Notes under the pieces: model-generated
What the model was told of the DNA's origin: nothing
Database searches by the model: none
Seen by the model: only the letters and a program-made list of their open reading frames with translations
Assembly: GCA_963931495.1 (NCBI GenBank)
Contig: OZ007020.1
Coordinates: 1-32,000, forward strand
Direction of reading: 5' to 3'
Length of the DNA stretch: 32,000 nt
DNA from: an uncultured Alphaproteobacteria bacterium
GTDB lineage: Bacteria; Pseudomonadota; Alphaproteobacteria; Rs-D84
Program-made: the position numbers and the translations under genes
Shown: one piece after another, positions 1,389 to 31,695 of the stretch
Position numbering within the stretch: position 1 is the stretch's first letter
Layout: every line of letters begins with the position of its first letter

Positions 1389-4097
1389 ATGCGCAAAATT
1401 ATCGTATCGTCTGTAATTGTAATATCCTGTATCATCCCGGCATTTGCCACAGATGCACCAGATTTTAATACTTTTTATGCGTTATATAAAACAGCATCCC
1501 AAGAAAATGATATAACCATCACAGGCGATATCGTATCCACACGGCTTATCAGTGCACCTGGGGCAACAACGACCCGCATAAATGGCGGTCAATTTGATTT
1601 CAATGGCAACAGTATGATTGGATTTATTTTGTCATCAGGTAATAATCTGGATATATCAAATGTCGGCACATTCACAACAGATGGCAATCAAGTCAATATC
1701 ACAAAATCTTTCAACACATTTTCTAATTCATCCGAAGGGGGTGTTATATCAAATCTGGGCGGGAATGTAACAATTAACAATTCAGCATTCAGTAATAATT
1801 CATCTGTACTGGGGGGCGGGGTTATTTATTTGAACAACAACGCAACTGTAACCGCAACGGACAGCGTATTCAGTAACAATCACGCAACGCGTGGCGATGG
1901 CGGCGTTATTTATAATGAATATGAAACCGTATCTACATTTAGCAATGCGCAATTTACATCAAATTCTGCCAGCGATATGGGCGGCGTCGCATTTAACGAC
2001 GGCGAAATAAACATCAATAATTCTGTTTTTACATCAAATACCGCGACCAGTGGCGGTGCATTATATAACTCTAATATCATCAACATAGATGGCGCGACAT
2101 TTACATCTAATACATCCGACGATATCGGTGGCGCAATCTATACCACCGGTACACTGAATTTAACCAACGCAACATTTGAAAACAACACCAGTGATACCGG
2201 CGGCGGCATTGGTAACTATGGCATCAGTGGCGATACACTGTATGCTGTTGTGCGCAATTCTGAATTTAATAACAACCGGGCAACATACGGTGGCGCAATC
2301 TATAACTGGGACGACATGTATGTCATAGACAGTAATTTTATCAATAATTCTGCCACAGACAGTGGCGGCGCAATAATGAACATGTATGAATTGTACTTGA
2401 TTGCAAATAACGATGATATGTTGTTTTCTGGCAATACATCAGGCGGAAAATCAAATGCAATTCAGTCCAGTGGAACAATCGGTATGAATGCTGCCGAAAA
2501 CCGTACAATAACATTTGATGACAATATTGCTGGTGATGGCGAAATAATTATTAATCGGCAATTTATTTTTAATGAATCAAATGTGCCGACCGGTGGGACA
2601 ATTGTATTAAATAATGATATGACCGGATTTACCGGGAACGTAACAATGTACAACGGAAACGTTAATGTTACAACAAACGGAAAATTTTTTCATGCAAATC
2701 GTCTGGATGTGATTGGCGGCACATTAAACCTGGGGACAACATCAGCAAATGTAACCAGTGCGAACTTTGCCACTGGGGCCACATTGGGAATAACAATCGC
2801 GAATGAAAATACGTATGGAAATTTAACGGCACGCGATTGGAATATTTCTGATGGTGCACGCATGAATGTTATTTTAGAACCGAATGCACTGGGCACAAAC
2901 AGCAGTATGCGCGTTCAAATACTGCGTGGCAATGCCGTCCAAGACAACTTTGTCCCAGACATAAATAATAACATATATTCATTCATCGGACTGGGGGATG
3001 GGTGGTACGAAATCGCACAGTACAGCGACTTTAACAATATTATACGAGAATATGGGGGTACAGCAAATAACCTGAATACCGCATCTGCGTGGCAAAATGA
3101 ACCAGATACCAACGGTATGGAACGCGTTATATACACGCGCATGAACGAACTGTTACAAACAAATGCAATTGAATATATACATGCGTTAACCGCACTGGCA
3201 CCGGTAACTGCACCAATTATGCAGATTATCGGGACAACACTGAATGACCGATTTGATTTACTGACCAACAATGTCGCAACACGCAACACCATCAAAGATT
3301 CATACAATGGCACATTGTGGATGTCTGGGTTCACAGGTGGTGGACAACTGGACGCAACGATGCACTATGCCGAATTTAATATCAACGGATATGGCGGTGC
3401 AATTGGTGCAGAATATCAAAATCATGATTTGACACTGGGGATTGCATATACATATCAAAACGATGATTTATCCAGTTGGTCGCGCACAATAAATGCCCCA
3501 ACGCATGGTGGCGGAATATATGCCACATACAATCATGGGGGAATTACATTGCGCGCCAAGGCAACAGGATTTTATTCAGATGCATCCGAAGTAAAACATG
3601 TCGCAGGATTAAATATATATAACGAAATCCCGTTATACACGTTTGGCGCATGGATGGATGCCGGATATTCTTTTGACACCAGTGGCATATCAATAACACC
3701 ACGTGCCGGGGCGCGTTACGTAAAAATACATCGTCAATCATCAACCGATACAGCAACCCAGTTAATATCATCTGGGAATATGGATTTTGTAACCGCATAT
3801 GGCGATATAACATTTCGCATAAAAAACATCAACATATTCGGAACGGCAATTATACCAGAATTCATTATCGGCACTGCATATGATTTACACGGTAATTCTG
3901 ACAATGTAAATGTTAAAATAAACGATACAGAATATAATATCACATCCGCCCAGTTGCCACGTTGGCAAACAAAAATTGGCGCGGTTGTCCGGGTATTATT
4001 TACACCAAACACTGAAATACAAATTGGATGCGATGGTGAATTTCGCGAAGGATATTATGATTATACCGTCGGCGCACGTGGAATATTAAAATTCTGA
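1389..4097 (+). CDS. Autotransporter outer-membrane protein with a Pmp-type (polymorphic membrane protein) repeat passenger domain
   Basis: 902 aa with signal peptide MRKIIVSSVIVISCIIPAFA. About 10 tandem units of FxxN-(x4-6)-GG[AVG][IVL] (e.g. FSNNSSVLGGGVIY, FTSNTATSGGALYN, FNNNRATYGGAIYN) span aa ~110-360. The C-terminal ~280 aa has beta-strand-like alternating aromatic/Gly sequence and ends ...GILKF (terminal Phe). Confidence 0.85.
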   Translation: MRKIIVSSVIVISCIIPAFATDAPDFNTFYALYKTASQENDITITGDIVSTRLISAPGATTTRINGGQFDFNGNSMIGFILSSGNNLDISNVGTFTTDGNQVNITKSFNTFSNSSEGGVISNLGGNVTINNSAFSNNSSVLGGGVIYLNNNATVTATDSVFSNNHATRGDGGVIYNEYETVSTFSNAQFTSNSASDMGGVAFNDGEININNSVFTSNTATSGGALYNSNIINIDGATFTSNTSDDIGGAIYTTGTLNLTNATFENNTSDTGGGIGNYGISGDTLYAVVRNSEFNNNRATYGGAIYNWDDMYVIDSNFINNSATDSGGAIMNMYELYLIANNDDMLFSGNTSGGKSNAIQSSGTIGMNAAENRTITFDDNIAGDGEIIINRQFIFNESNVPTGGTIVLNNDMTGFTGNVTMYNGNVNVTTNGKFFHANRLDVIGGTLNLGTTSANVTSANFATGATLGITIANENTYGNLTARDWNISDGARMNVILEPNALGTNSSMRVQILRGNAVQDNFVPDINNNIYSFIGLGDGWYEIAQYSDFNNIIREYGGTANNLNTASAWQNEPDTNGMERVIYTRMNELLQTNAIEYIHALTALAPVTAPIMQIIGTTLNDRFDLLTNNVATRNTIKDSYNGTLWMSGFTGGGQLDATMHYAEFNINGYGGAIGAEYQNHDLTLGIAYTYQNDDLSSWSRTINAPTHGGGIYATYNHGGITLRAKATGFYSDASEVKHVAGLNIYNEIPLYTFGAWMDAGYSFDTSGISITPRAGARYVKIHRQSSTDTATQLISSGNMDFVTAYGDITFRIKNINIFGTAIIPEFIIGTAYDLHGNSDNVNVKINDTEYNITSAQLPRWQTKIGAVVRVLFTPNTEIQIGCDGEFREGYYDYTVGARGILKF

Positions 4098-5402: not shown

Positions 5403-7517
5403 TTACTTATTGAATATACTTTGTATCCATCCCTCATAATCCATTGCTTCGCCGGCGTCAACCGTACCACCAACGCCATTTGTGCTGACACACGTCACTA
5501 TCATTGAATTACATGCACGAAGTGCCACGCCATTTATACCCTCTGTTCCGCCGGTTGTGGCATTATAACCGTTGCTGACCAGACATGATATAACATCGTC
5601 AATGCATCGTTCGGCATGATCGGCAAGAATCGTATCTTGCTGGGCCTTGATGGTTGTTAATGTACGCAACAAGTATTCTTTGATAACAACATTGTCCGGA
5701 TCATACGCACCGTCTGAACCAGTATATGTCAAATCTTGACACATATTTAATACAGACATGCACATACCAGAATTCTTGCCATCTTGATTAGTGCCAATTT
5801 TGTCCTTTAAGAATTTCACAATGTTTGTATCATCTTGGTCAATAAACTCTGACATATTGCCGGTCTTCCAGGCAGACTTGCCATCGTACAGCCAAGTTGC
5901 ATAAACGCCGGCTGATTTATCCATATCTTCACCGACCTGGCCCGGCGTACTGCCCACGACAACATCACCATTTACGATATACTTACCGGTTGGGTCCAGA
6001 CAGTATTCATACTTACGACCACATGCAAATTCGTCTTGCATACATGAATCCAGTTCGGTCACACATTCACGTAAATCATACGCATTCTTTTGTTCCGCAA
6101 CCATTAATCGCGCACGCTGCAGTAACGATGTCGCATTGCGAACCGTCGCAGACATCTGGTCGTTCGCATCCGTCAGTGACCGTTCATATGCAATACACGC
6201 CTTGTCTATTTCCAAATCATACGAATTCGTTATCACTGATATATCAACACCCTGGGATTGACAACTGTTCAATACAGACGCCTTGCAACGCGCAGCCGCC
6301 GTTTCATACAAATCTTCACCACGCTGGTTGCTGATACTGCTGGTGTCAACACCAGAATTACCAAACAAATTCGCTAAATCAAATCCAGAACTGTCCAAAG
6401 AAAAGTCCAACAGACCACTTAAATCAAAACTTAATCCACTGGATGCATTTGAACGCGCACGACCAGATTCAACATCTATTATCATGTCACGTATGGATTC
6501 CAGACTGTTCATGAATTGACTGTTATCCGTTGACCCAGATAATTCTGTTTCGGCCGCTGTTTCGGTAAACAGTGATTCAACCTGGTCCGCCGTCAGTCCA
6601 ATGTATTGAATTTGTTGCGCAACGTCTTGCAGACGTTCCGTGGCTTCTTTTAACGCTGCCTCAGTCTCGGCATAATTGCTTAAATTCGCACTGCAACTGC
6701 AACGACCCTGGTTGTCATCCAAAACATTACAGAAATTATCCATACATGCCGTATATTGCGCCTTGCAAAAATCGGTCAATTGCGCCAATTCATCCATAGA
6801 TGTTACAGATGACGTAGTGGTTGCCGCCGTCGTTGTGGTGGTTGCCGCACTGGACGTCGCGCGAATCGTTGGAACACGCGCACTGACTGTATTTGTACTG
6901 GCCACGCCAACACGACTGGTTACATATAATGGTTTATTAACTGTATCTGTTTGAACCAACGTGGCACGCGCCGTATTCGCATTATTATTCTGTGATGCGC
7001 GACGGGTTGTTACCCCCGGTGTTGTTGTTGCCGACGTCGTTGTCGCACGAACAGTTGTGGTTGGACGACTGGATACCGTATTTGTTGCCGTTGCACGCGA
7101 TGTACGTGACGACGCGTTCGCGGTTGCACCACGTGTTGTTGCCGCACGTGTTGCATTTACACGCGACACAGTTGTCGGTGTTGTCGCCGTACGAACCGTT
7201 ACATTGCGCGATGGCGTTGCATTATTACGTGTTGAAACATTACGCGATGACGTTGTGCCACCCGTGGCAACCGCACGCGACGCAGATGCGCGCCCCGATG
7301 TATTGCGCGGACTGGCCGTGGTGGGAACAACCGGCTGTTTTGCAACCGGGACCGTTGGTTGTTGCGTTTCATCCGCAACCGGTTCCGCAATTTCGGATTC
7401 CACCGGCATATCGTCAGAATACTGCATCAGCATATCTTGATAGAAATATTCTGGTGCAACCTCTGCAAATGCAGGTAAACTCAACACCCCAACAAGCACA
7501 GTGATAAAGCGTTTCAT
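5403..7517 (-). CDS. Secreted protein of unknown function: signal peptide, ~195-aa Thr/Arg/Ser/Ala-rich low-complexity region, then a ~460-aa Cys-rich domain
   Basis: The ORF-track entry was trimmed to MKRFITVLVGVLSLPAFA|EV (ATG at 7517, AGAGGG RBS upstream). 704 aa. Recurrent C-x6-7-C pairs run through the C-terminal domain. No family was recognised. Confidence 0.75.
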   Translation of the reverse strand: MKRFITVLVGVLSLPAFAEVAPEYFYQDMLMQYSDDMPVESEIAEPVADETQQPTVPVAKQPVVPTTASPRNTSGRASASRAVATGGTTSSRNVSTRNNATPSRNVTVRTATTPTTVSRVNATRAATTRGATANASSRTSRATATNTVSSRPTTTVRATTTSATTTPGVTTRRASQNNNANTARATLVQTDTVNKPLYVTSRVGVASTNTVSARVPTIRATSSAATTTTTAATTTSSVTSMDELAQLTDFCKAQYTACMDNFCNVLDDNQGRCSCSANLSNYAETEAALKEATERLQDVAQQIQYIGLTADQVESLFTETAAETELSGSTDNSQFMNSLESIRDMIIDVESGRARSNASSGLSFDLSGLLDFSLDSSGFDLANLFGNSGVDTSSISNQRGEDLYETAAARCKASVLNSCQSQGVDISVITNSYDLEIDKACIAYERSLTDANDQMSATVRNATSLLQRARLMVAEQKNAYDLRECVTELDSCMQDEFACGRKYEYCLDPTGKYIVNGDVVVGSTPGQVGEDMDKSAGVYATWLYDGKSAWKTGNMSEFIDQDDTNIVKFLKDKIGTNQDGKNSGMCMSVLNMCQDLTYTGSDGAYDPDNVVIKEYLLRTLTTIKAQQDTILADHAERCIDDVISCLVSNGYNATTGGTEGINGVALRACNSMIVTCVSTNGVGGTVDAGEAMDYEGWIQSIFNK

Positions 7518-7543
7518 TTGAAAAGTACCCTCTTTTATCAAAG

Positions 7544-7572
7544 ATTTTACCACATTATGCAAATTTATACAA
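7544..7572 (-). promoter_or_regulatory. Candidate promoter for the Cys-rich secreted protein gene
   Basis: Minus strand reads TTGTAT, a 17-nt spacer, then TAAAAT. The predicted TSS is ~20 nt upstream of the ATG. Confidence 0.35.
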
Positions 7573-7651
7573 ACAAAAAATACGTTATAAAACAAAAATT
7601 TATATATAGACGGGTGAATGAATTCCTGATTTATTAAAAAATTTAATGAAT

Positions 7652-7681
7652 TTGACATTTGCTGTAATTAACATATATAAT
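7652..7681 (+). promoter_or_regulatory. Candidate promoter for the phospholipase D-family gene
   Basis: TTGACA (7652-7657), an 18-nt spacer, then TATAAT (7676-7681). Confidence 0.45.
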
Positions 7682-11382: not shown

Positions 11383-13155
11383 ATGTATCACAGCAATGGA
11401 AATTATGAAGCATTCGCCAATCCGTTACCCCCCGCAGATGCAAATAAAAAATCTGCATATATTGTTGGTGGTGGGCTGGCCGGATTGGCCGCAGCGGTTT
11501 TTATGATCCGCGATGGTAAAATGCGTGGTAATAAAATTCATATTTTTGAAGAACTGCCCATCGCCGGGGGCAGTATGGACGGCATAAAAAATCCACAACG
11601 TGGCTTTATCATTCGTGGCGGACGCGAAATGGAGGCACATTTTGAAACACTGTGGGATTTGTTCCGTTCAATCCCATCATTGGAAAATCCAGATATATCT
11701 GTGCTGGATGAATTTTATTGGCTGAATAAATCAGACCCCAGTTTTTCGCACTGTCGCGCAATTGAACGCCGCGGGCACCGCATGAAAGACGACGGAAAAT
11801 TAACCCTGGGGCCAACCGCAATTCGCGAACTGATTGATCTGGCACTGACCCCCGAAGAAAAATTACAAGATGTCAAAATAAACCAAGTTTTTGGTGACGA
11901 ATTTTTTGAATCTAATTTCTGGCTGTATTGGGCAACAATGTTCGCATTTGAAAAATGGTCCAGCGCAATGGAAATGCGACGCTATATCTTGCGTTTTATT
12001 CATCATGTTGGAAAACTGGCCGATATGTCTGCATTAAAATTTACTAAATATAACCAATATGAATCATTAATAACCCCGCTGGTACGATGGCTGGAATCAC
12101 ATGGGGTGAAATTTCATTTTGATACAACCGTAACAAATGTTCGCGTCAGTTGCCGTCAAAATAAAAAAATTGCGCAAAAAATAGAAATGATAAAGTCTGG
12201 TCGTAAACGTGAAATTAAACTGACCCAGGACGATATGGTGTTTATAACAAATGGTTCTATTACCGAAAGCACGACATATGGCGATAACGATACCCCAGCA
12301 GATACCACGCATGAACTGGGCGCGTCATGGCAATTGTGGAAAAATATGGCGGCACAATGCGACGAATTCGGCCATCCTGAAAAATTCTGTGAAAATATTC
12401 CAGATGCTAATTGGGTAATATCTGCGACGATTACGTTAACAGACGATACCGTTGTGCCGTATATTGAAAAAATATGCAAAAAAAATCCACACAGTGGTTC
12501 TATTGTCAGCAGTGGCCCTGTTACAATCAAAGACTCTAATTGGTTATACGGATTCAGTATTTCGCGCCAACCACATTTTCGTGCACAAAAACCAAACGAA
12601 ATTGTTGTCTGGACATATGGATTACTGTCCGATACAGATGGTAACTATGTCAAAAAGAAAATCACAGAATGCACAGGCGCAGAACTGTGCGCAGAATGGC
12701 TGTATCATATCGGGGTGCCAGAATCACAAATAGAAGATATCGCACACAATCGTTCCAGCACTGTCCCATCACATATGCCGTATATAACAACATACTTTAT
12801 GCCACGCGCAAATGGCGACAGACCGTTGGTTGTGCCGAAAAATTCTGTGAATTTAGCCTTTATCGGTAATTACGCAGAAACAGAACGTGATACTGTGTTC
12901 ACCACGGAATATTCTGTACGTACCGCAATGGAAGCCGTTTATACTTTACTGAATCTGGACCGCGGCGTACCCGAAGTCTTTGATTCTTGTTTTGATATAC
13001 GTATGCTGTTACAAAGTGTGTATTATCTGAACGATTGTAAAAAATTGAATCAAATTGATGTGCCGTGGGTGTTAAAATTGCTGGAAAAGCAAGGTATGAA
13101 GCATGTCACCGGCACGTATTTGGAACAATTATTACGTGATGCAAAATTGATATAA
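11383..13155 (+). CDS. ohyA: Oleate hydratase (MCRA / myosin-cross-reactive-antigen family, FAD-dependent)
   Basis: 590 aa. The N-terminus MYHSNGNYEAFANP...KKSAYIVGGGLAGLAAAVFMIRDGKMRGNKIHIFEELPIAGGSMDG is characteristic of MCRA-family oleate hydratases and includes the GxGxxG FAD motif. A strong AAGGAGAGAG RBS is present. Confidence 0.9.
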   Translation: MYHSNGNYEAFANPLPPADANKKSAYIVGGGLAGLAAAVFMIRDGKMRGNKIHIFEELPIAGGSMDGIKNPQRGFIIRGGREMEAHFETLWDLFRSIPSLENPDISVLDEFYWLNKSDPSFSHCRAIERRGHRMKDDGKLTLGPTAIRELIDLALTPEEKLQDVKINQVFGDEFFESNFWLYWATMFAFEKWSSAMEMRRYILRFIHHVGKLADMSALKFTKYNQYESLITPLVRWLESHGVKFHFDTTVTNVRVSCRQNKKIAQKIEMIKSGRKREIKLTQDDMVFITNGSITESTTYGDNDTPADTTHELGASWQLWKNMAAQCDEFGHPEKFCENIPDANWVISATITLTDDTVVPYIEKICKKNPHSGSIVSSGPVTIKDSNWLYGFSISRQPHFRAQKPNEIVVWTYGLLSDTDGNYVKKKITECTGAELCAEWLYHIGVPESQIEDIAHNRSSTVPSHMPYITTYFMPRANGDRPLVVPKNSVNLAFIGNYAETERDTVFTTEYSVRTAMEAVYTLLNLDRGVPEVFDSCFDIRMLLQSVYYLNDCKKLNQIDVPWVLKLLEKQGMKHVTGTYLEQLLRDAKLI

Positions 13156-26926: not shown

Positions 26927-26956
26927 TTGCGTATATGTCTGATTTTTTTCTACAAT
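26927..26956 (+). promoter_or_regulatory. Candidate promoter for the virB8/9/10-like operon
   Basis: TTGCGT (26927-26932), an 18-nt spacer, then TACAAT (26951-26956), about 28 nt upstream of the start codon. Confidence 0.3.
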
Positions 26957-26983
26957 CTGGTTAATAAGAAGGAGAGAAATCAG

Positions 26984-27658
26984 TTGCAAAACCGCATAGA
27001 ACCGCCGATTTTGTTGTCCAGGCTGATGCTGTTTGTTTTTACAACGATGCTGGTCGTGCTGGTTGTGATGCTGGTTGCGGTGTATAATATGTATCCATTA
27101 AATCGGCCCCAGGTGTTCTTTTTAATGACCGCCCCCCAGGATAATTTGACCGTTGTATTACGGGAATTGGTGCCGGTTGATGAAAATCTTGATAATTTTA
27201 AGCGCACATTTATTCGCGAATACATTCGGGCACGGAATGAAATTGTACCAAATGCCGCCGAAATGCGCGAAAAATGGAATAATGCTGATAACGGTGTCGT
27301 GTACGAATGGTCAACCCAAGATGTATACAACGCCTTTACCCAAACAAATATGTGGAATGCATGGATGGGTGGGGTTCCGGATTTTGAATTTTCTTGTTCT
27401 GTGGAATTTGACAATGGGGCGATTTCGCCACGCGGAAATGATGTTTATTCTGTAAAATTTCGTTATTTCTGTTCAGATAGTAATAGACAGATGGATAAAA
27501 AAGATTATACAATACAATTGAAATTGGAAATGGAAGATAACGCAACGATAAAATGGGACGAACGACTGGATAATCCATTGGGCATTCGGGTTTCTGAATA
27601 CACAATTGAATCTGGTAACGGCGATCCGTTGGATACAGGTTATCTGGCAAGTAATTAA
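26984..27658 (+). CDS. virB8: VirB8-like type IV secretion system inner-membrane protein
   Basis: The TTG start at 26984 lies 9 nt after AAGGAG (26969-26974); the ORF-track start at 26927 has no RBS. The ~224-aa protein has a short N-terminus, one TM (LMLFVFTTMLVVLVVMLVAVY) and a periplasmic domain. That domain carries FIREYIRARNEI and the C-terminal NPLGIRVSEY, which matches the conserved NPxG motif of VirB8 proteins. Confidence 0.75.
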   Translation: MQNRIEPPILLSRLMLFVFTTMLVVLVVMLVAVYNMYPLNRPQVFFLMTAPQDNLTVVLRELVPVDENLDNFKRTFIREYIRARNEIVPNAAEMREKWNNADNGVVYEWSTQDVYNAFTQTNMWNAWMGGVPDFEFSCSVEFDNGAISPRGNDVYSVKFRYFCSDSNRQMDKKDYTIQLKLEMEDNATIKWDERLDNPLGIRVSEYTIESGNGDPLDTGYLASN

Positions 27659-27687: not shown

Positions 27688-29211
27688 ATGACATTTTCAA
27701 AGGCGCTTAAATTAAATGTATCTGTATTATGCCTGGTGTTGTTGTGCGGGGGCGCGATGGCTGCTGGAACGAACTATGGCGTGCAATCGGCATGGGATAA
27801 TCCAACGGCAAACATGGCCGCCGGCAGTGTCAAGCCTGGATACGCACAATTGACCTGGTCCAAGGGCAGTGTTTTACCCGTAAAATTGCGTAACGGAATG
27901 ACAACATTGATTGCACTGCCAAACGGCGAAAAAATTGCAGATGCCGTTATCGGAAATGATGGGCTGTTTTCAATTGATGCAACCCAAGGGGGCAGCACGA
28001 TGTTCATCACCCCGGTATCCAGCAACCAGGGTTCGGATACTAATTTGATTGTGTCGGGTGAATCTGGGAACGTGTACACATTTTATCTGCGCAGCGAACC
28101 ATCTAATTCCAGTGAAATCACATATTCCCAGGTTGATGTCGTATTGGATGGTAATGCACCAGTGTCAACCGCATCTGGCGCAACAAATGCCGCCGGCGGA
28201 TCGTCGTCTATATTCAAAAAGCAAAATGCCGCCGCCAGTACGATTGGGGTTGATGGCGAAGATTACGGATGGATTAAATCAATGAAAATTGATCCGTCTG
28301 AATTCCGATTTGACTTGGATATATTCGTTCCAAATCCAGACGATTATGTTATTGCACCTGAACGCGTATGGCGCGATCGGATATTTACGTATATTGACTT
28401 TGGGGACAAGGTTATTTCCATGACCCAGCGCCCGGTTGTATCTTTATTAATAGAAGGCGGTGAATCACCGGTCGGATTCCGCACGGATGGCGAAGATGGC
28501 CGTCTGTTAATCGTTGAAGCGGTTGGTGACATGGTTCTGCGCAGTGGGCAACGCATTGTTTGTATCAAAAAGCGCGAAAAACCGTTCTTGATTGCGGATA
28601 CGGCATCGGTTATGGCGTTGGCCGAAGCGAACGTTGCGCAATCCATTATGTCTGGCCAATCGTTAAATAATATCGCGTACAGCGCGGACCAGGCGGCGAT
28701 TAACGCATCTGTAAATGGTTATACAACGTCACCAATTATGGTTGGTAATATGCCGGCGGGCACAACCAGTGGATATTACGCACCGGCGGGGTACGCCATG
28801 CCGGCCGTCACCAGTGGCGGGGCAACCACAACCGCAATGGTGCCCACAGAACGGTTAACGGCGGGTTCGTTCTTGCCACAGTCAAACATTCCATTGATAA
28901 CCAGTAATCAAACCGGTGTCGCGGTTGAATTGAAATCCGACACATCGGTCAAGGCGTTGGATGATTATTGGGCAAATCTGTTGGCGAAATTCAGTGGCGA
29001 TGACGGTCAAGGTATATTAACCCCATACAAAGACATGGTGTTCTTTGCGGTGGACGAACAAGGGGTCGGTGATTTGGGGGCGGATTCTTCGGCTGCGCGT
29101 CTGTATCGGTTGCGCATTGGGCCGCTGTCTGATGTAAATACGGCCCAACAATTATGCAACCAGTTACTGGAATTCAGTGGAACCAGTTGCAGTGTCGTGC
29201 GCGTACAATAA
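27688..29211 (+). CDS. virB9: VirB9/TrbG/CagX-like T4SS outer-membrane core protein with a C-terminal SPOR-like domain
   Basis: 507 aa with a signal peptide. The N-domain (aa ~45-140) reads LPVKLRNGMTTLIALPNGEKIADAVIGNDGLFSID...STMFITPV...DTNLIVSGESGNVYTFYL. The C-domain (aa ~195-300) reads IAPERVWRDRIFTYIDFGD...PVVSLLIEGGESPVGFRTDGEDGRLLIVEAVGDMVLRSGQRIVCI. A low-complexity linker is followed by aa ~409-507, ending LYRLRIGPLSDVNTAQQLCNQLLEFSGTSCSVVRVQ (SPOR-like). Confidence 0.8.
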   Translation: MTFSKALKLNVSVLCLVLLCGGAMAAGTNYGVQSAWDNPTANMAAGSVKPGYAQLTWSKGSVLPVKLRNGMTTLIALPNGEKIADAVIGNDGLFSIDATQGGSTMFITPVSSNQGSDTNLIVSGESGNVYTFYLRSEPSNSSEITYSQVDVVLDGNAPVSTASGATNAAGGSSSIFKKQNAAASTIGVDGEDYGWIKSMKIDPSEFRFDLDIFVPNPDDYVIAPERVWRDRIFTYIDFGDKVISMTQRPVVSLLIEGGESPVGFRTDGEDGRLLIVEAVGDMVLRSGQRIVCIKKREKPFLIADTASVMALAEANVAQSIMSGQSLNNIAYSADQAAINASVNGYTTSPIMVGNMPAGTTSGYYAPAGYAMPAVTSGGATTTAMVPTERLTAGSFLPQSNIPLITSNQTGVAVELKSDTSVKALDDYWANLLAKFSGDDGQGILTPYKDMVFFAVDEQGVGDLGADSSAARLYRLRIGPLSDVNTAQQLCNQLLEFSGTSCSVVRVQ

Positions 29212-29232
29212 TTGTCAGAATCTGTGGGTAAA

Positions 29233-31695
29233 ATGAATATAAAAAAACAATTTTCAGAAATGCGCAAAAATACGCCAAAGCATATACAATGGCTGTTGTT
29301 GGCGGCGGCGTTTGTTGTCGTAATTATACTGTTAACACTGTTGTTAACAAACCACGAAGAAGAAGTACTGGAAAGCAACGGCGATGTCGCCATTACATTG
29401 GGAATTGTGCCAGATACAATTGAATGGCCAGATGTGTCTGTTGGTGATACAAAAACCGAAACAATAAAGGTTACGGCCAGTGCACCAATAAAAATTGTCG
29501 GGCTTAACCTGGAACACGATATTCCGGGATTAAAGCAACCAATACAGCAAACATGCACATCAATGGGGCAAATTGATGCAGATAATGCATGCACAATTGT
29601 TTTGGAATACAGTCCGATTGCGGCATCTGATGTAACAACCACCGAATTGTACATTGAATGGCATGATGCAAACGCATCTGAAAGCATGAAAAATACTGGG
29701 CGTGCCATTTTGGTTGTTGGTGCCAACGACCCAGCGCCGGTTGTTGAACCAGAACCAATTATTGAACCAGAACCGCTTGTAATCCCAGATCCAGAACCGA
29801 TTATTGAACCAGAACCCGTGGTTGCGCCTGAACCGGTTGTTGCGCCAACCCCAACAATCAAACAAGAAATAAAATCTGAATTGGCAGAAATTATACCAAC
29901 AAATGATTTTGTGTTTGATGATGAACCAACTGTCACCACAATGACAGATACCGGCGCAAATACAACGGCCCCTGTACCGTCTGAGGCATGTTCTGACTTT
30001 GCCATGCCGGGTTACAACTTGTCAGGGGTGCAGAGTGGATGGATTCGCCCCAGCGGTGGCGCATATTATTTCCATCCGTTTTCTGATACAGAGTGCAAAA
30101 ATCCAACCGGAACGTATAATCCAGACAACGGTATTATCACAGATATAAATAATCCGGCACAAAAAATTGGTACAGATGCCGAACATATCGGATATACAAC
30201 AATAACAAATGGAACATTACCACAACTGTCTAATCCGGCAACAACACGCAATGAAAATAAAGCGGTACAATTAACCGCGGCGGAAATAAACGCACTGCCA
30301 CAATTATCGTCAGCGGGTCAAATGAAGCATGTTGAATTAAAGGCCGCACCCAAAGCACAAGTTATTGTCGGAACCAGTGGTTCGGCAACATATTCGTCAG
30401 ACCCATATGACAGAAGTTTTGTTCTGCGCCAGTATAAACCAATTCCTGCAACAATTGTGTCCGAGGTTCGCGCCGACCCAACAATTTATGAATCTGGTCA
30501 TGCACTGCCGGTCCAGGCAACTGTTGACAGAAATGTTTATTCTGATGATGGACGCACGATTGTAATTCCAACTGGCACACTAATGTTGGGATATGTTAAT
30601 GGTGAATTGCCGGGACCGTATAAGTCAATTGGACGCATGAATATTAATTGGTATCAATTTATATTGCCAAATGGGGTTGAATTCAATTTCACCGGCGACC
30701 CAAACCAGGATCCTTTTTCGGCGGATTCCCAGGGTCGTGTCGGTGTTCCTGGACACGGCAGTACAGATTATGTTGAACAATTGGTTATGCCAATGCTGAC
30801 CGCGATTGTGCCAGCGGCGGTTAATATGATTGCACCAATATCAGACGCATTTATAAACCAAATTGATCTGGATAATAATACCGTTGTGCAAAGCGGAACA
30901 ATTCGTTCATCCGAATTGGCCAAAAATGAAATTATTACCGCATGGAACCAGGTTGCACAAAAGTTACTGGTTGATGCCATGGATAATACCATTCCGCCAT
31001 TTTCTATTGCGGCCGGTACACGTATAACCGTATATTCACCGACTGATTTGGTTATAACATGTGGTCACGACGCAGATAAAATCTGTTCTGTTGAAAATCT
31101 GTACCAGGAGACACAATTGCGTCCTAATTGGCGCCACAATGTCACCGTTAATCCGAATGATGGTTCATGGACAGGCCAAGTACGTTCATTTAATCTGGAA
31201 CAATATTGCACAACGGACAGTGATGGCATTTGGGATATTAAGCCTGGCGTAGAAGGTGAAATTATAAATTCTGGATACGATTACAGAACTGTGTTGGCGT
31301 ATTGTCAATCATTGAATTACCAGGCGATTAATAATGCACGCCAAGATGCGGTATACCAAAATCAACAACAGCAATTCCAGAACAGTTACAGTGTTCAATC
31401 ATCGGGGGCATCAAATACAATCAGTGGCCTGAGTGGTATAACCGGCAGCCAGGCGTATAACGAAGATATCTTGGGGTTGACATATGATGACAGTGGCGCG
31501 ATTCAAAATCCATTCGTTGAATCAGACGCATTGACAGATGTCACAGAAACCACAGAAACAGTCATAACATGCGATGGCGGGGTGGCACCTGATGAATACG
31601 GTTGCTGTCCGGGTGAAATATATACCGATATGGGCGAACAAGGATTCAATTGCTGTCCGGAAACAGGGGGCGATTGTTTCCCGCCGATATTGTAA
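29233..31695 (+). CDS. virB10: Enlarged VirB10/TrbI-like T4SS protein (Ig-like module, Pro-rich region, VirB10 core, Cys-rich C-terminal extension)
   Basis: An ATG at 29233 gives 820 aa; an in-frame TTG at 29212 abuts the upstream stop. Numbering from 29212, the TM is WLLLAAAFVVVIILLTLLLT. A beta-rich module covers aa 57-172. The Pro-rich region PAPVVEPEPIIEPEPLVIPDPEPIIEPEPVVAPEPVVAPTPT covers aa 173-215. The VirB10/TrbI-like core covers aa ~395-615 (IPATIVSEV...VIPTGTLMLGYVNG...GRMNINWYQFILPNGVEF...DSQGRVGVPGH...AAGTRITVYSPTDLVI). A ~210-aa extension ends CDGGVAPDEYGCCPGEIYTDMGEQGFNCCPETGGDCFPPIL. Confidence 0.8.
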   Translation: MNIKKQFSEMRKNTPKHIQWLLLAAAFVVVIILLTLLLTNHEEEVLESNGDVAITLGIVPDTIEWPDVSVGDTKTETIKVTASAPIKIVGLNLEHDIPGLKQPIQQTCTSMGQIDADNACTIVLEYSPIAASDVTTTELYIEWHDANASESMKNTGRAILVVGANDPAPVVEPEPIIEPEPLVIPDPEPIIEPEPVVAPEPVVAPTPTIKQEIKSELAEIIPTNDFVFDDEPTVTTMTDTGANTTAPVPSEACSDFAMPGYNLSGVQSGWIRPSGGAYYFHPFSDTECKNPTGTYNPDNGIITDINNPAQKIGTDAEHIGYTTITNGTLPQLSNPATTRNENKAVQLTAAEINALPQLSSAGQMKHVELKAAPKAQVIVGTSGSATYSSDPYDRSFVLRQYKPIPATIVSEVRADPTIYESGHALPVQATVDRNVYSDDGRTIVIPTGTLMLGYVNGELPGPYKSIGRMNINWYQFILPNGVEFNFTGDPNQDPFSADSQGRVGVPGHGSTDYVEQLVMPMLTAIVPAAVNMIAPISDAFINQIDLDNNTVVQSGTIRSSELAKNEIITAWNQVAQKLLVDAMDNTIPPFSIAAGTRITVYSPTDLVITCGHDADKICSVENLYQETQLRPNWRHNVTVNPNDGSWTGQVRSFNLEQYCTTDSDGIWDIKPGVEGEIINSGYDYRTVLAYCQSLNYQAINNARQDAVYQNQQQQFQNSYSVQSSGASNTISGLSGITGSQAYNEDILGLTYDDSGAIQNPFVESDALTDVTETTETVITCDGGVAPDEYGCCPGEIYTDMGEQGFNCCPETGGDCFPPIL

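What the first reader, a model, noticed from the sequence alone, without database searches (positions are those of the whole stretch)
28912..29208. VirB9-like protein fused to a C-terminal SPOR-like peptidoglycan-binding domain
Seen: after complete VirB9 N- and C-domains (aa ~45-300) comes a ~105-aa low-complexity linker rich in G, A, T, S, Y and P. Next is a ~100-aa module: GVAVELKSDTSVKALDDYWANLLAKF...LYRLRIGPLSDVNTAQQLCNQLLEFSGTSCSVVRVQ. Established knowledge: this matches the SPOR pattern. That pattern has two beta-alpha-beta halves, with a 'Y-R-[LV]-x-[IV]-G-P-[FL]-x-x-x-x-x-A-x-x-x-C-x-x-L' second half. SPOR domains bind denuded glycan strands in peptidoglycan. Canonical VirB9 proteins end after the C-domain and rely on the VirB7 lipoprotein. 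Inference: here the outer-membrane core may be tethered directly to the cell wall, possibly replacing a missing VirB7 or targeting the machine to septal or remodelled peptidoglycan. I am not aware of this fusion being described, but I cannot verify that without a database search.
Basis: partly seen in the sequence, partly recalled or inferred. Interest (0 to 1): 0.7.

Follow-up and report, generated by a model that had tools for sequence, protein, structure and literature searches.

The report
VirB9 with atypical SPOR-like tail
A secretion-machine outer-membrane subunit (VirB9) in tiny-genome gut bacteria carries a tethered cell-wall-binding-type (SPOR) domain. The fusion is real, widespread and undescribed, but the domain's key sugar-binding residue is changed, so its ligand is uncertain.

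Summary
ORF 27688..29211 (507 aa) lies between virB8 and virB10. It has a VirB9 core (Pfam CagX 2.8e-21; best fold matches TrwF/VirB9), a partly variable linker, and a C-terminal module exactly at 28912..29208.

That module is a SPOR-family domain:
- Pfam SPOR is marginal for this copy, but hits 30/30 relatives (best 4.8e-9).
- hhalign against canonical SPOR domains gives 97.7% probability, E 1.7e-12.
- The AF2 model is beta-alpha-beta-beta-alpha-beta, and its top PDB hits are the RlpA and DedD SPOR domains.

The fusion is conserved in Candidatus Enterousia (order Rs-D84, genomes under 1 Mb) and at least two deeper alphaproteobacterial clades. All 254 sequences checked carry it. dN/dS is about 0.06. 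It was not found on plasmids or in the literature searched.

- The signature SPOR glutamine (FtsN Q251, RlpA Q270) is Glu in 253/254 sequences. FtsN Q251E is a known binding-defective mutation. The Arg patch is kept. Canonical denuded-glycan binding therefore cannot be assumed.
- A sister clade keeps a VirB7-like lipoprotein gene next to the fusion, so "VirB7 replacement" is unsupported.

Verdict: a new variant of a known kind, of moderate interest.

The parts
26927..27658 (+). virB8 homolog (243-aa ORF from a TTG; the true start is uncertain)
   Evidence: Pfam VirB8 PF04335, E 6.8e-15. The same gene sits upstream of virB9 in L001, L081, L082 and L083.
27688..29211 (+). virB9-SPOR fusion gene (507 aa plus stop)
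   Evidence: ORF. CagX and SPOR hits. More than 240 full-length relatives have the same architecture.
27688..27765 (+). Predicted Sec signal peptide, aa 1-26 (...GGAMA|AG); no lipobox
   Evidence: Read directly from the sequence. Inference only; no signal-peptide predictor was available.
27820..28587 (+). VirB9 core: N-terminal domain about aa 45-160, C-terminal domain about aa 196-300
   Evidence: PF03524 covers aa 54-295. The AF2 N-terminal domain has pLDDT 72-81. Foldseek matches TrwF/VirB9 (8rt6_B, E 1.3e-11), Xanthomonas VirB9 (6gyb_B, E 1.5e-11) and the TrwF N-terminal domain (TM 0.80-0.83). The C-terminal domain has dN/dS about 0.008 but modelled poorly as a monomer.
28588..28692 (+). 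Conserved post-VirB9 segment, aa 301-335, with a predicted helix at aa 306-319
   Evidence: Column conservation falls from 0.97 to 0.83 across the segment. dN/dS is 0.05. Helix from the AF2 model.
28693..28842 (+). Variable low-complexity tether, aa 336-385 (rich in A, T, G, S, Y, P, M)
   Evidence: Lowest conservation in the protein, about 0.6. Highest dN/dS, 0.30. pLDDT below 40. Composition. The tether is longer in the sister clade, whose proteins are 520-617 aa.
28843..28911 (+). Conserved pre-SPOR segment, aa 386-408 (PTERLTAGSFLPQSNIPLITSNQ); a [YF]LPxxx[IV]P[LF][IV]-like motif is shared across clades
   Evidence: dN/dS 0.031. The motif is visible in alignment A2. A short strand is predicted at aa 402-404.
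28912..29208 (+). SPOR-family domain, Glu-variant, aa 409-507. Topology beta1 (410-418), alpha1, beta2, insertion loop, beta3 (472-480), alpha2, beta4 (502-506)
   Evidence: Pfam SPOR. hhalign 97.7%. AF2 model at pLDDT 72 with RlpA and DedD SPOR domains as top PDB hits. dN/dS 0.055.
28927..28929 (+). Glu414 codon (GAA), at the position of the signature SPOR Gln (FtsN Q251 / RlpA Q270 / Pfam model position 8)
   Evidence: Transitive alignments. Glu in 253 and Asp in 1 of 254 sequences. Role of the Gln from PMC6895207. Q251E phenotype.
29107..29115 (+). Arg474-Leu475-Arg476 of YRLRIGP, equivalent to the basic patch (FtsN R285; RlpA R309/R311)
   Evidence: R474 in 253/254 and R476 in 254/254 sequences. 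Mapping.
29155..29190 (+). Invariant Cys490 (alpha2) and Cys501 (before beta4); probable periplasmic disulfide
   Evidence: Both Cys are present in 254/254 sequences and in the canonical alphaproteobacterial SPOR domains of A3. The disulfide itself is inference.
29212..31695 (+). virB10 homolog (827 aa), starting right after the virB9 stop codon
   Evidence: Pfam TrbI PF03743, E 5.3e-15, aa 406-613. NCBIfam VirB10 and ComB10 hits. Junction sequence.

Best explanation
This is the VirB9 outer-membrane core subunit of a chromosomal type IV secretion system (T4SS).

Context:
- The organism is a genome-reduced gut alphaproteobacterium of the Candidatus Enterousia / Rs-D84 group.
- In a sister clade, the gene order matches the Rickettsiales rvh system.

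Anatomy after the normal VirB9 domains:
- a conserved helix;
- a flexible tether of about 50 aa, variable in sequence and length;
- a conserved pre-domain segment;
- a C-terminal SPOR-family domain, in the periplasm.

Proposed mechanism (inferred):
- Each VirB9 copy in the ring dangles one SPOR-like domain at the level of the sacculus. Solved core complexes have about 14 copies (established knowledge).
- The domain holds on to peptidoglycan glycan strands around the channel. This anchors or positions the outer-membrane core complex, and possibly directs where it is installed.
- Most of the canonical glycan-binding face is kept: Ser/Ala417, Leu472, Arg474 and Arg476. The signature Gln is an invariant Glu.
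- I therefore expect glycan binding with altered specificity or affinity, not canonical denuded-glycan recognition.

Shown: the architecture, SPOR homology and fold, the Glu substitution, conservation, and distribution.
Inferred: periplasmic location, peptidoglycan binding, and the anchoring role.
For: - VirB9 identity and virB8-virB9-virB10 synteny.
- SPOR homology: Pfam hits in 30/30 relatives; hhalign 97.7%, E 1.7e-12, over the whole domain; canonical SPOR proteins recovered by phmmer.
- Fold: beta-alpha-beta-beta-alpha-beta, with RlpA and DedD SPOR domains as top PDB matches.
- Ligand-face residues equivalent to FtsN S254 and R285, and to RlpA L307, R309 and R311, are conserved. The Arg pair is invariant in 253-254 of 254 sequences.
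- These exposed residues, Glu414 included, are invariant across clades whose whole proteins are only about 35% identical (domain identity 25-40%). That argues for a working binding site rather than a decayed one.
- Purifying selection on the domain (dN/dS about 0.055) contrasts with the tether (0.30).
- Two invariant Cys fit an oxidising periplasmic location.
- Precedents for envelope machines carrying peptidoglycan-binding domains: PilQ AMIN domains (PMC5285504) and Dot/Icm DotK and Dis1 OmpA-like domains (PMC9302130).
Against: - Glu replaces the only highly conserved ligand-contacting side chain of SPOR domains. FtsN Q251E reduces denuded-glycan binding and septal localisation.
- The first half of the domain scores poorly against canonical SPOR profiles, about 4 bits.
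- No binding data exist.
- The SPOR model has only moderate confidence (pLDDT 72, Foldseek E about 1e-2).
- No virB4, virB11, virD4 or virB7 lies within 10 kb of virB9 in the Enterousia loci. That this trio belongs to a complete working T4SS is therefore assumed, not shown.
Confidence: 0.5

Rival explanations
1. The SPOR fold has been repurposed. The domain no longer binds peptidoglycan and instead mediates protein-protein contacts inside the machine. Partners could be the unusually large periplasmic VirB10 of these lineages, VirB8, or neighbouring VirB9 tails. Alternatively it binds a non-peptidoglycan ligand.
For: - The Gln-to-Glu change matches a known binding-defective mutation.
- Glu414 lies next to the invariant Arg474/Arg476 by homology with RlpA Q270/R309/R311. 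It could close the carboxylate pocket with an internal salt bridge.
- The Glu-variant was seen only as a VirB9 C-terminus: every short hit whose contig was inspected (P0174) was a VirB9 C-terminus cut off at the contig end, and most of the other short hits sit on contigs of about 1 kb. The free-standing SPOR proteins checked have Gln.
- Partner VirB10 proteins are expanded, at 827 to 2354 aa.
Against: - The rest of the canonical glycan-contact face is retained.
- A long, variable, disordered tether suits reaching a distant layer better than forming a fixed subunit interface.
- No partner was identified and no co-folding test was possible.
Confidence: 0.25
2. One reading: a canonical SPOR domain binds amidase-denuded septal glycans. 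It targets or pre-installs the T4SS at division sites and new poles, as AMIN domains do for the PilQ secretin.
For: - SPOR homology and fold.
- Retained basic patch.
- Precedent from PilQ AMIN domains, which recruit the type IVa pilus machine to future division sites (PMC5285504).
- Rs-D84 genomes encode RodA, MreB and MrdA, and so make peptidoglycan (PMC12306168).
Against: - The signature Gln is never present in 254 sequences.
- FtsN Q251E lowers denuded-glycan binding and septal localisation.
- The first half of the domain diverges from the SPOR model.
Confidence: 0.15
3. The SPOR tail substitutes for a lost VirB7 lipoprotein in stabilising or anchoring the core complex.
For: No VirB7-like gene or lipobox ORF lies within 10 kb of virB9 in the window or in about 80 Enterousia loci.
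Against: - In the sister clade (L081, L082) the same VirB9-SPOR fusion sits beside a 58-aa lipoprotein gene between two virB8 paralogs. That is the position of rvhB7 in Rickettsia typhi (PMC4676284).
- The VirB9 C-terminal domain, which binds VirB7 in known systems, is the most constrained part of the protein, at dN/dS 0.008.
- VirB7 genes are tiny, and one may lie elsewhere in the genome.
Confidence: 0.05
4. Artefact: a chance motif match, an assembly chimera, or a decaying pseudogene remnant.
For: For this single sequence, the Pfam SPOR score is below the cutoff on the full-length protein.
Against: - The uninterrupted fusion is found in 254 sequences from many independent assemblies and hosts.
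- The domain is under strong purifying selection.
- Profile-profile and fold evidence supports SPOR homology.
Confidence: 0.02

Closest known systems
VirB9 / TrbG / CagX outer-membrane core subunits of type IV secretion systems (e.g. TrwF of R388, Xanthomonas citri VirB9, pKM101 TraO)
   Same: - Pfam CagX above its cutoff.
- N-terminal domain fold: TM 0.80-0.83 to the TrwF N-terminal domain.
- Full-length alignment to TrwF and Xanthomonas VirB9.
- Gene lies between virB8 and virB10.
   Different: - About 200 extra C-terminal residues: helix, tether and SPOR-like domain.
- Very divergent core: NCBIfam VirB9 equivalog scores 50.5 bits against a cutoff of 217.7, and phmmer finds no PDB sequence.
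- Chromosomal, next to rpoBC and ribosomal-protein genes. The tail is not found on plasmids.
SPOR domains of FtsN, DamX, DedD, RlpA and CwlC (Pfam PF05036)
   Same: - RNP-like beta-alpha-beta-beta-alpha-beta fold.
- C-terminal position after a disordered linker.
- YR[LV]R.GP strand with the basic patch.
- Ser/Ala and Leu ligand-face positions.
- The two Cys shared with alphaproteobacterial SPOR domains.
   Different: - The signature Gln is an invariant Glu.
- There is an insertion of about 12 residues between beta2 and beta3.
- The first half matches the profile weakly.
- It is attached to a secretion-machine subunit, not to a division protein or peptidoglycan hydrolase.
Rickettsiales vir homolog (rvh) T4SS
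   Same: - Chromosomal T4SS genes sit in small islets among housekeeping genes of a reduced alphaproteobacterial genome.
- Sister-clade order is virB8 - small lipoprotein - virB8 - virB9 - virB10 - virB11. This mirrors R. typhi rvhB8-II / rvhB7-rvhB8-I-rvhB9-II-rvhB10-rvhB11.
   Different: - No SPOR tail on RvhB9 is mentioned in the rvh literature searched.
- In Rickettsiaceae, the paralog in this position (RvhB9-II) lacks the C-terminal domain. Here that domain is the most conserved part.
- The Enterousia islet holds only virB8-9-10.
PilQ secretin AMIN domains (type IVa pilus machine)
   Same: The outer-membrane channel subunit itself carries a peptidoglycan-binding domain on its periplasmic side. 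There it anchors the machine and recruits it to future division sites (PMC5285504). This is the closest functional analogy.
   Different: - A different fold (AMIN) and a different machine.
- The domains are N-terminal.
- Peptidoglycan binding is shown experimentally for PilQ and not for this protein.
Dot/Icm T4BSS outer-membrane-cap components DotK and Dis1 (OmpA-like peptidoglycan-binding domains)
   Same: A T4SS outer-membrane complex that includes peptidoglycan-binding-type domains (PMC9302130).
   Different: These are separate accessory proteins with OmpA-like domains. They are not a SPOR domain fused to the VirB9-equivalent core subunit.

Membership tests
VirB9/TrbG/CagX (Pfam PF03524) | Profile match above the curated cutoff, spanning both VirB9 domains | tested here: met
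   76.7 bits against a cutoff of 34.2; aa 54-295 match model positions 5-197 of 198.
VirB9/TrbG/CagX (Pfam PF03524) | VirB9 beta-sandwich fold | tested here: met
   Top PDB matches of the full-length model are TrwF/VirB9 (8rt6_B, E 1.3e-11) and Xanthomonas VirB9 (6gyb_B, E 1.5e-11). The N-terminal domain matches the TrwF N-terminal domain at TM 0.80-0.83, rmsd about 2 A. The C-terminal domain itself modelled poorly, at pLDDT 30-47.
VirB9/TrbG/CagX (Pfam PF03524) | Encoded between virB8 and virB10 | tested here: met
   VirB8 is upstream and TrbI/VirB10 downstream in the window and in L001, L081, L082 and L083.
NCBIfam TIGR02781 'P-type conjugative transfer protein VirB9' (equivalog) | Score above the equivalog cutoff | tested here: not met
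   50.5 bits against a cutoff of 217.7. This is a divergent VirB9-family protein, not an equivalog of plasmid VirB9.
SPOR domain (Pfam PF05036) | Profile match above the curated cutoff | tested here: inconclusive
   - Whole protein: 18.6 bits, below the cutoff of 21.
- Isolated domain: 21.8-22.2 bits, just above it, but only model positions 38-75 match.
- Relatives: 30/30 hit, best E 4.8e-9.
- Precomputed PF05036 is recorded in 16/120 and 37/120 listed homologs.
- hhalign against canonical SPOR domains: 97.7%, E 1.7e-12.
SPOR domain (Pfam PF05036) | RNP-like beta-alpha-beta-beta-alpha-beta fold | tested here: met
   AF2 secondary-structure order is E-H-(H)-E-E-H-E, at pLDDT 72. The top three PDB hits are SPOR domains: RlpA 6i09 and 6i05 (probability 1.0, TM-target 0.74) and DedD 6ztg. 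RlpA SPOR is found again with the full-length model. E-values are modest, about 1e-2.
SPOR domain (Pfam PF05036) | Conserved Gln in beta1 that contacts the glycan (RlpA Q270, FtsN Q251, DamX Q351; Pfam model position 8) | tested here: not met
   The position is Glu414 here. It is Glu in 253 and Asp in 1 of 254 VirB9-SPOR sequences. The canonical SPOR domains aligned alongside all have Gln. Its role is described in PMC6895207.
SPOR domain (Pfam PF05036) | Basic patch on the sheet face (RlpA R309/R311, FtsN R285) | tested here: met
   Arg474 and Arg476 of YRLRIGP are conserved in 253/254 and 254/254 sequences.
SPOR domain (Pfam PF05036) | Binds denuded peptidoglycan glycan strands and localises to septa | not testable with these tools
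   This needs a sacculus pull-down, ITC with defined glycans, or localisation experiments.
Rickettsiales vir homolog (rvh)-type T4SS | Scattered chromosomal islets with duplicated VirB8/VirB9/VirB4 and an rvhB7 lipoprotein between virB8 paralogs | tested here: inconclusive
   - The sister clade (L081, L082) shows virB8 - 58-aa lipoprotein - virB8 - virB9 - virB10 - virB11. This matches the R. typhi order.
- The window and L083 have only virB8-9-10.
- The rest of the genomes could not be searched.

The most novel reading that the evidence does not exclude
The VirB9 tail defines a previously unrecognised 'Glu-variant' SPOR subfamily. So far it is seen only on VirB9. The Gln-to-Glu switch re-tunes the ligand, with the Arg patch and the rest of the glycan face retained. 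The new ligand could be glycan carrying a cationic or hydrogen-donor group, such as de-N-acetylated GlcN, or otherwise modified strands. The core complex of an rvh-like T4SS would then carry its own cell-wall address label, deciding where the machine is built in these host-dependent gut bacteria.
Probability: 0.25. Interest if true: 0.65.

Novelty: new variant of a known kind. Interest (0 to 1): 0.5.

Why it matters
How type IV secretion systems cross the cell wall, and are positioned in it, is poorly understood.
- Known T4SS core subunits carry no cell-wall-binding domain of their own.
- Here a SPOR-type domain has been fused to the core subunit VirB9 and kept under strong selection.
- The fusion spans hundreds of species of abundant but uncultured, genome-reduced gut Alphaproteobacteria.

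The invariant Gln-to-Glu change is a natural experiment on SPOR ligand recognition. It is the same substitution used in the laboratory to weaken FtsN binding.

Both questions can be tested directly with a small recombinant domain. The result also shows that current annotation ("TrbG/VirB9 family protein") mostly misses the extra domain.

Tried and rejected
- PDB sequence searches with the domain alone and with its profile gave only spurious antibody hits at E above 0.1. A full-length phmmer search against PDB found nothing.
- A word-indexed search with the divergent C-terminal profile A2 returned only 15 short proteins, most on contigs under 2 kb. One was checked and is a VirB9 C-terminus cut by a contig end.
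- I searched the window and about 80 Enterousia loci for a VirB7-like gene, by tblastn with the sister-clade 58-aa lipoprotein and by a lipobox ORF scan. Nothing was found.
- I searched the same loci for virB11 and for the seven upstream secreted proteins of L081. Nothing was found.
- I scanned all held loci with a canonical SPOR HMM to find a Gln-type SPOR protein from the same organisms. Only the VirB9 genes hit.
- tblastn of the tail against 72,556 plasmids gave no match.
- Five literature searches on the fusion found no description of it: VirB9 + SPOR domain; SPOR domain + type IV secretion; VirB9 + peptidoglycan-binding; Rs-D84 + secretion system; rvh + SPOR. One Enterousia paper could not be retrieved.
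- Rejected: the 332-aa minus-strand ORF 29007..30005 that overlaps the domain. It is Gly/Ser-rich and mirrors the Pro-rich VirB10 coding region, so it is probably not a gene.
- Rejected: assembly chimera or chance motif (see rival explanations).
Full report
**1. Observation**

The window contains a 507-aa ORF at 27688..29211 on the + strand.
- A VirB8 homolog lies upstream at 26927..27658 (PF04335, E 6.8e-15).
- An 827-aa VirB10/TrbI homolog follows at 29212..31695 (PF03743, E 5.3e-15) and starts right after the virB9 stop codon.
- Upstream on the other strand are tRNA-Trp, secE, nusG, ribosomal-protein genes and rpoB/rpoC. These were assigned from ORF order and lengths and from the tRNA scan, not from a profile search. 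Other housekeeping genes further upstream were confirmed by Pfam. The cluster is therefore chromosomal.

**2. The protein is a VirB9**

- Pfam CagX/VirB9 covers aa 54-295 at 76.7 bits against a cutoff of 34.2.
- A full-length AlphaFold2 model is poor overall (pLDDT 51), but the N-terminal domain is confident (pLDDT 72-81).
- Its best PDB matches are T4SS core subunits: TrwF/VirB9 of R388 (8rt6_B, E 1.3e-11), Xanthomonas VirB9 (6gyb_B, E 1.5e-11), and the TrwF N-terminal domain (TM 0.80-0.83). Further matches come from the Dot/Icm, F-plasmid and Cag (CagX) core complexes.
- It is a divergent member. The NCBIfam VirB9 equivalog scores 50.5 bits against a cutoff of 217.7, and phmmer finds no PDB sequence.

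**3. The tail is a SPOR-family domain**

For this single sequence the Pfam SPOR hit is marginal.
- It scores 18.6 bits on the whole protein and 21.8-22.2 bits on the isolated domain, against a cutoff of 21.
- Only the second half of the model matches.

At family level the case is strong.
- All 30 diverse relatives' tails hit SPOR, best E 4.8e-9.
- phmmer of aa 385-507 against 1.84 billion representative proteins gives 30 hits at E up to 1e-3. These include bona fide multi-SPOR proteins with Pfam SPOR scores of 74-118 bits.
- hhalign of the tail profile against ten canonical SPOR domains taken from those proteins gives 97.7% probability, E 1.7e-12, over 86 columns spanning the whole domain. There is an insertion of about 12 residues between beta2 and beta3.
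- An AlphaFold2 model of aa 385-507 (pLDDT 72) has the beta-alpha-beta-beta-alpha-beta order. Its three best PDB matches are SPOR domains: RlpA 6i09 and 6i05 (probability 1.0, TM-target 0.74) and DedD 6ztg. The E-values are modest, about 1e-2.

**4. It is not a canonical SPOR domain**

Transitive alignments, read against the RlpA-glycan structure paper (PMC6895207), give this mapping:

| This protein | FtsN | RlpA |
|---|---|---|
| Glu414 | Q251 | Q270 |
| Ser417 | S254 | A273 |
| Leu472 | W283 | L307 |
| Arg474 | R285 | R309 |
| Arg476 | - | R311 |

- That Gln is the only highly conserved ligand-contacting side chain in SPOR domains. It donates hydrogen bonds to the MurNAc lactyl carboxylate and to the GlcNAc N-acetyl oxygen.
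- In 254 VirB9-SPOR sequences the position is Glu in 253, Asp in 1, and never Gln. The canonical domains aligned with them have Gln.
- FtsN Q251E is reported to reduce septal localisation and denuded-glycan binding (bioRxiv 10.1101/2024.05.13.594014).
- Arg474 (253/254), Arg476 (254/254) and two Cys (254/254) are kept, and all the proteins end in Gln.
- The binding face therefore looks functional but re-tuned, not decayed.

**5. Architecture between the domains**

The '105-aa linker' has three parts:
- aa 301-335: conserved, with a predicted helix (dN/dS 0.05);
- aa 336-385: a truly variable A/T/G/S/Y/P/M-rich tether (conservation about 0.6, dN/dS 0.30, pLDDT below 40);
- aa 386-408: a conserved pre-domain segment (dN/dS 0.031).

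The SPOR part has dN/dS 0.055 and the VirB9 C-terminal domain 0.008. Synonymous divergence is about 1, so these ratios are rough.

**6. Who has it**

- The closest genomes are Candidatus Enterousia and unnamed gut Alphaproteobacteria MAGs from human, chicken, horse, deer, sheep and mouse guts.
- 235 GTDB species genomes encode a relative. The best 80 all cover residues 1-507 or 3-507.
- Enterousia belongs to order Rs-D84, with genomes mostly under 1 Mb and genes for peptidoglycan synthesis (PMC12306168). That paper never uses the word 'secretion' and mentions type IV only in connection with pili.
- The 120 best protein clusters (74-100% identity) all carry the tail.
- A second large clade (520-617 aa, about 35% identical) also carries it in all 120 listed clusters.
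- Further divergent clusters exist, including P0130, P0134, P0136 and P0248.
- Databases name these proteins only 'TrbG/VirB9 family P-type conjugative transfer protein'. Precomputed Pfam annotation flags SPOR in only 16/120 and 37/120.
- The tail has no match in 72,556 plasmids.

**7. Genomic context**

- In Enterousia (L001) and in a third clade (L083), the islet is only virB8-virB9-virB10, among housekeeping genes.
- In the second clade (L081, L082) the order is: seven unknown signal-peptide proteins, virB8, a 58-aa lipoprotein with a lipobox (VirB7-like), virB8, virB9-SPOR, a 2274-2354-aa VirB10, then virB11.
- That order matches R. typhi rvhB8-II / rvhB7-rvhB8-I-rvhB9-II-rvhB10-rvhB11 (PMC4676284). 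These systems therefore look rvh-like.
- The SPOR tail coexists with a VirB7 candidate in that clade.
- No VirB7-like gene or virB11 lies within 10 kb in the Enterousia loci. Whether they exist elsewhere could not be tested.

**8. Mechanism**

My best-supported reading has confidence about 0.5. The VirB9 ring of the outer-membrane core complex dangles SPOR-like domains on flexible tethers at the level of the sacculus. There they hold glycan strands and anchor or position the machine. The Gln-to-Glu change alters specificity or affinity.

Rivals:
- a repurposed protein-interaction domain (0.25);
- VirB7 replacement (0.05);
- artefact (0.02).

The closest functional precedents are:
- the peptidoglycan-binding AMIN domains of the PilQ secretin, which recruit the type IVa pilus machine to future division sites (PMC5285504);
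- the OmpA-like DotK and Dis1 proteins in the Dot/Icm outer-membrane cap (PMC9302130).

**9. Novelty and limits**

- No paper in the held library contains both 'VirB9' and 'SPOR domain', or pairs rvh with the SPOR domain. Searches on SPOR + type IV secretion and on VirB9 + peptidoglycan-binding returned nothing relevant.
- I rate this a new variant of a known kind: a known core subunit plus a known domain family, in an undescribed combination with an unusual active-site variant.
- Peptidoglycan binding, localisation, and completeness of the T4SS in Enterousia are all untested.
- The SPOR model has only moderate confidence.
- Two structure libraries were unavailable.

Noticed in passing
window 29212..31695: The VirB10 homolog is 827 aa, but its TrbI domain covers only aa 406-613. 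It has Pro-rich PEPxxEPEP repeats (aa about 173-214). After the TrbI domain comes an extension of about 210 aa ending in a Cys-rich tail (CDGGVAPDEYGCCPGEIYTDMGEQGFNCCPETGGDCFPPIL). In sister clades the VirB10 next to VirB9-SPOR is 2191-2354 aa, with Bflower_2 Pfam hits.
   Followed up: partly
L081 323..8229 (sister clade): Seven consecutive genes lie directly upstream of virB8 - virB7-like - virB8 - virB9-SPOR. They encode signal-peptide proteins of 212-492 aa with no Pfam hit. They are absent from the Enterousia loci. They may be T4SS-associated surface proteins or substrates.
   Followed up: partly
L081 8976..9152; L082 1395..1571: A 58-aa lipoprotein (MNKYLFLFGIVAILSVAAC...PELPEWFS) is encoded between two virB8 paralogs. 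This is the position of rvhB7 in Rickettsia, making it a candidate VirB7.
   Followed up: partly
window 29206..29208 and all relatives: Nearly all of the 254 VirB9-SPOR proteins end with a C-terminal Gln (...VVR[VI]Q-COOH). Arg505 and Gln507 are near-invariant at 90% or more. The reason is unknown. One possibility is partial compensation for the missing beta1 Gln.
   Followed up: no
window 29007..30005 (-): A 332-aa Gly/Ser-rich ORF lies antisense to the virB9 3' end and the virB10 5' end. It mirrors the Pro-rich coding region and is probably not a gene.
   Followed up: no
window 1389..4097 (+) and 5403..7658 (-): A 902-aa protein carries Chlamydia polymorphic-membrane-protein repeats and may be an adhesin or autotransporter. 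A 751-aa ORF has no Pfam or NCBIfam hit. Both are large for a genome under 1 Mb.
   Followed up: partly
window 11383..13155 (+): An MCRA-family protein (PF06100, E 9e-218) is encoded near the fatty-acid synthesis genes plsX and fabH, in a metabolically reduced genome.
   Followed up: no
window 28288..28587 (VirB9 C-terminal domain, aa about 201-300): The VirB9 C-terminal domain is almost invariant across Enterousia species (column identity 0.96-0.99, dN/dS about 0.008). It nevertheless modelled very poorly as a monomer (pLDDT 30-47). This would fit folding that depends on partners.
   Followed up: no
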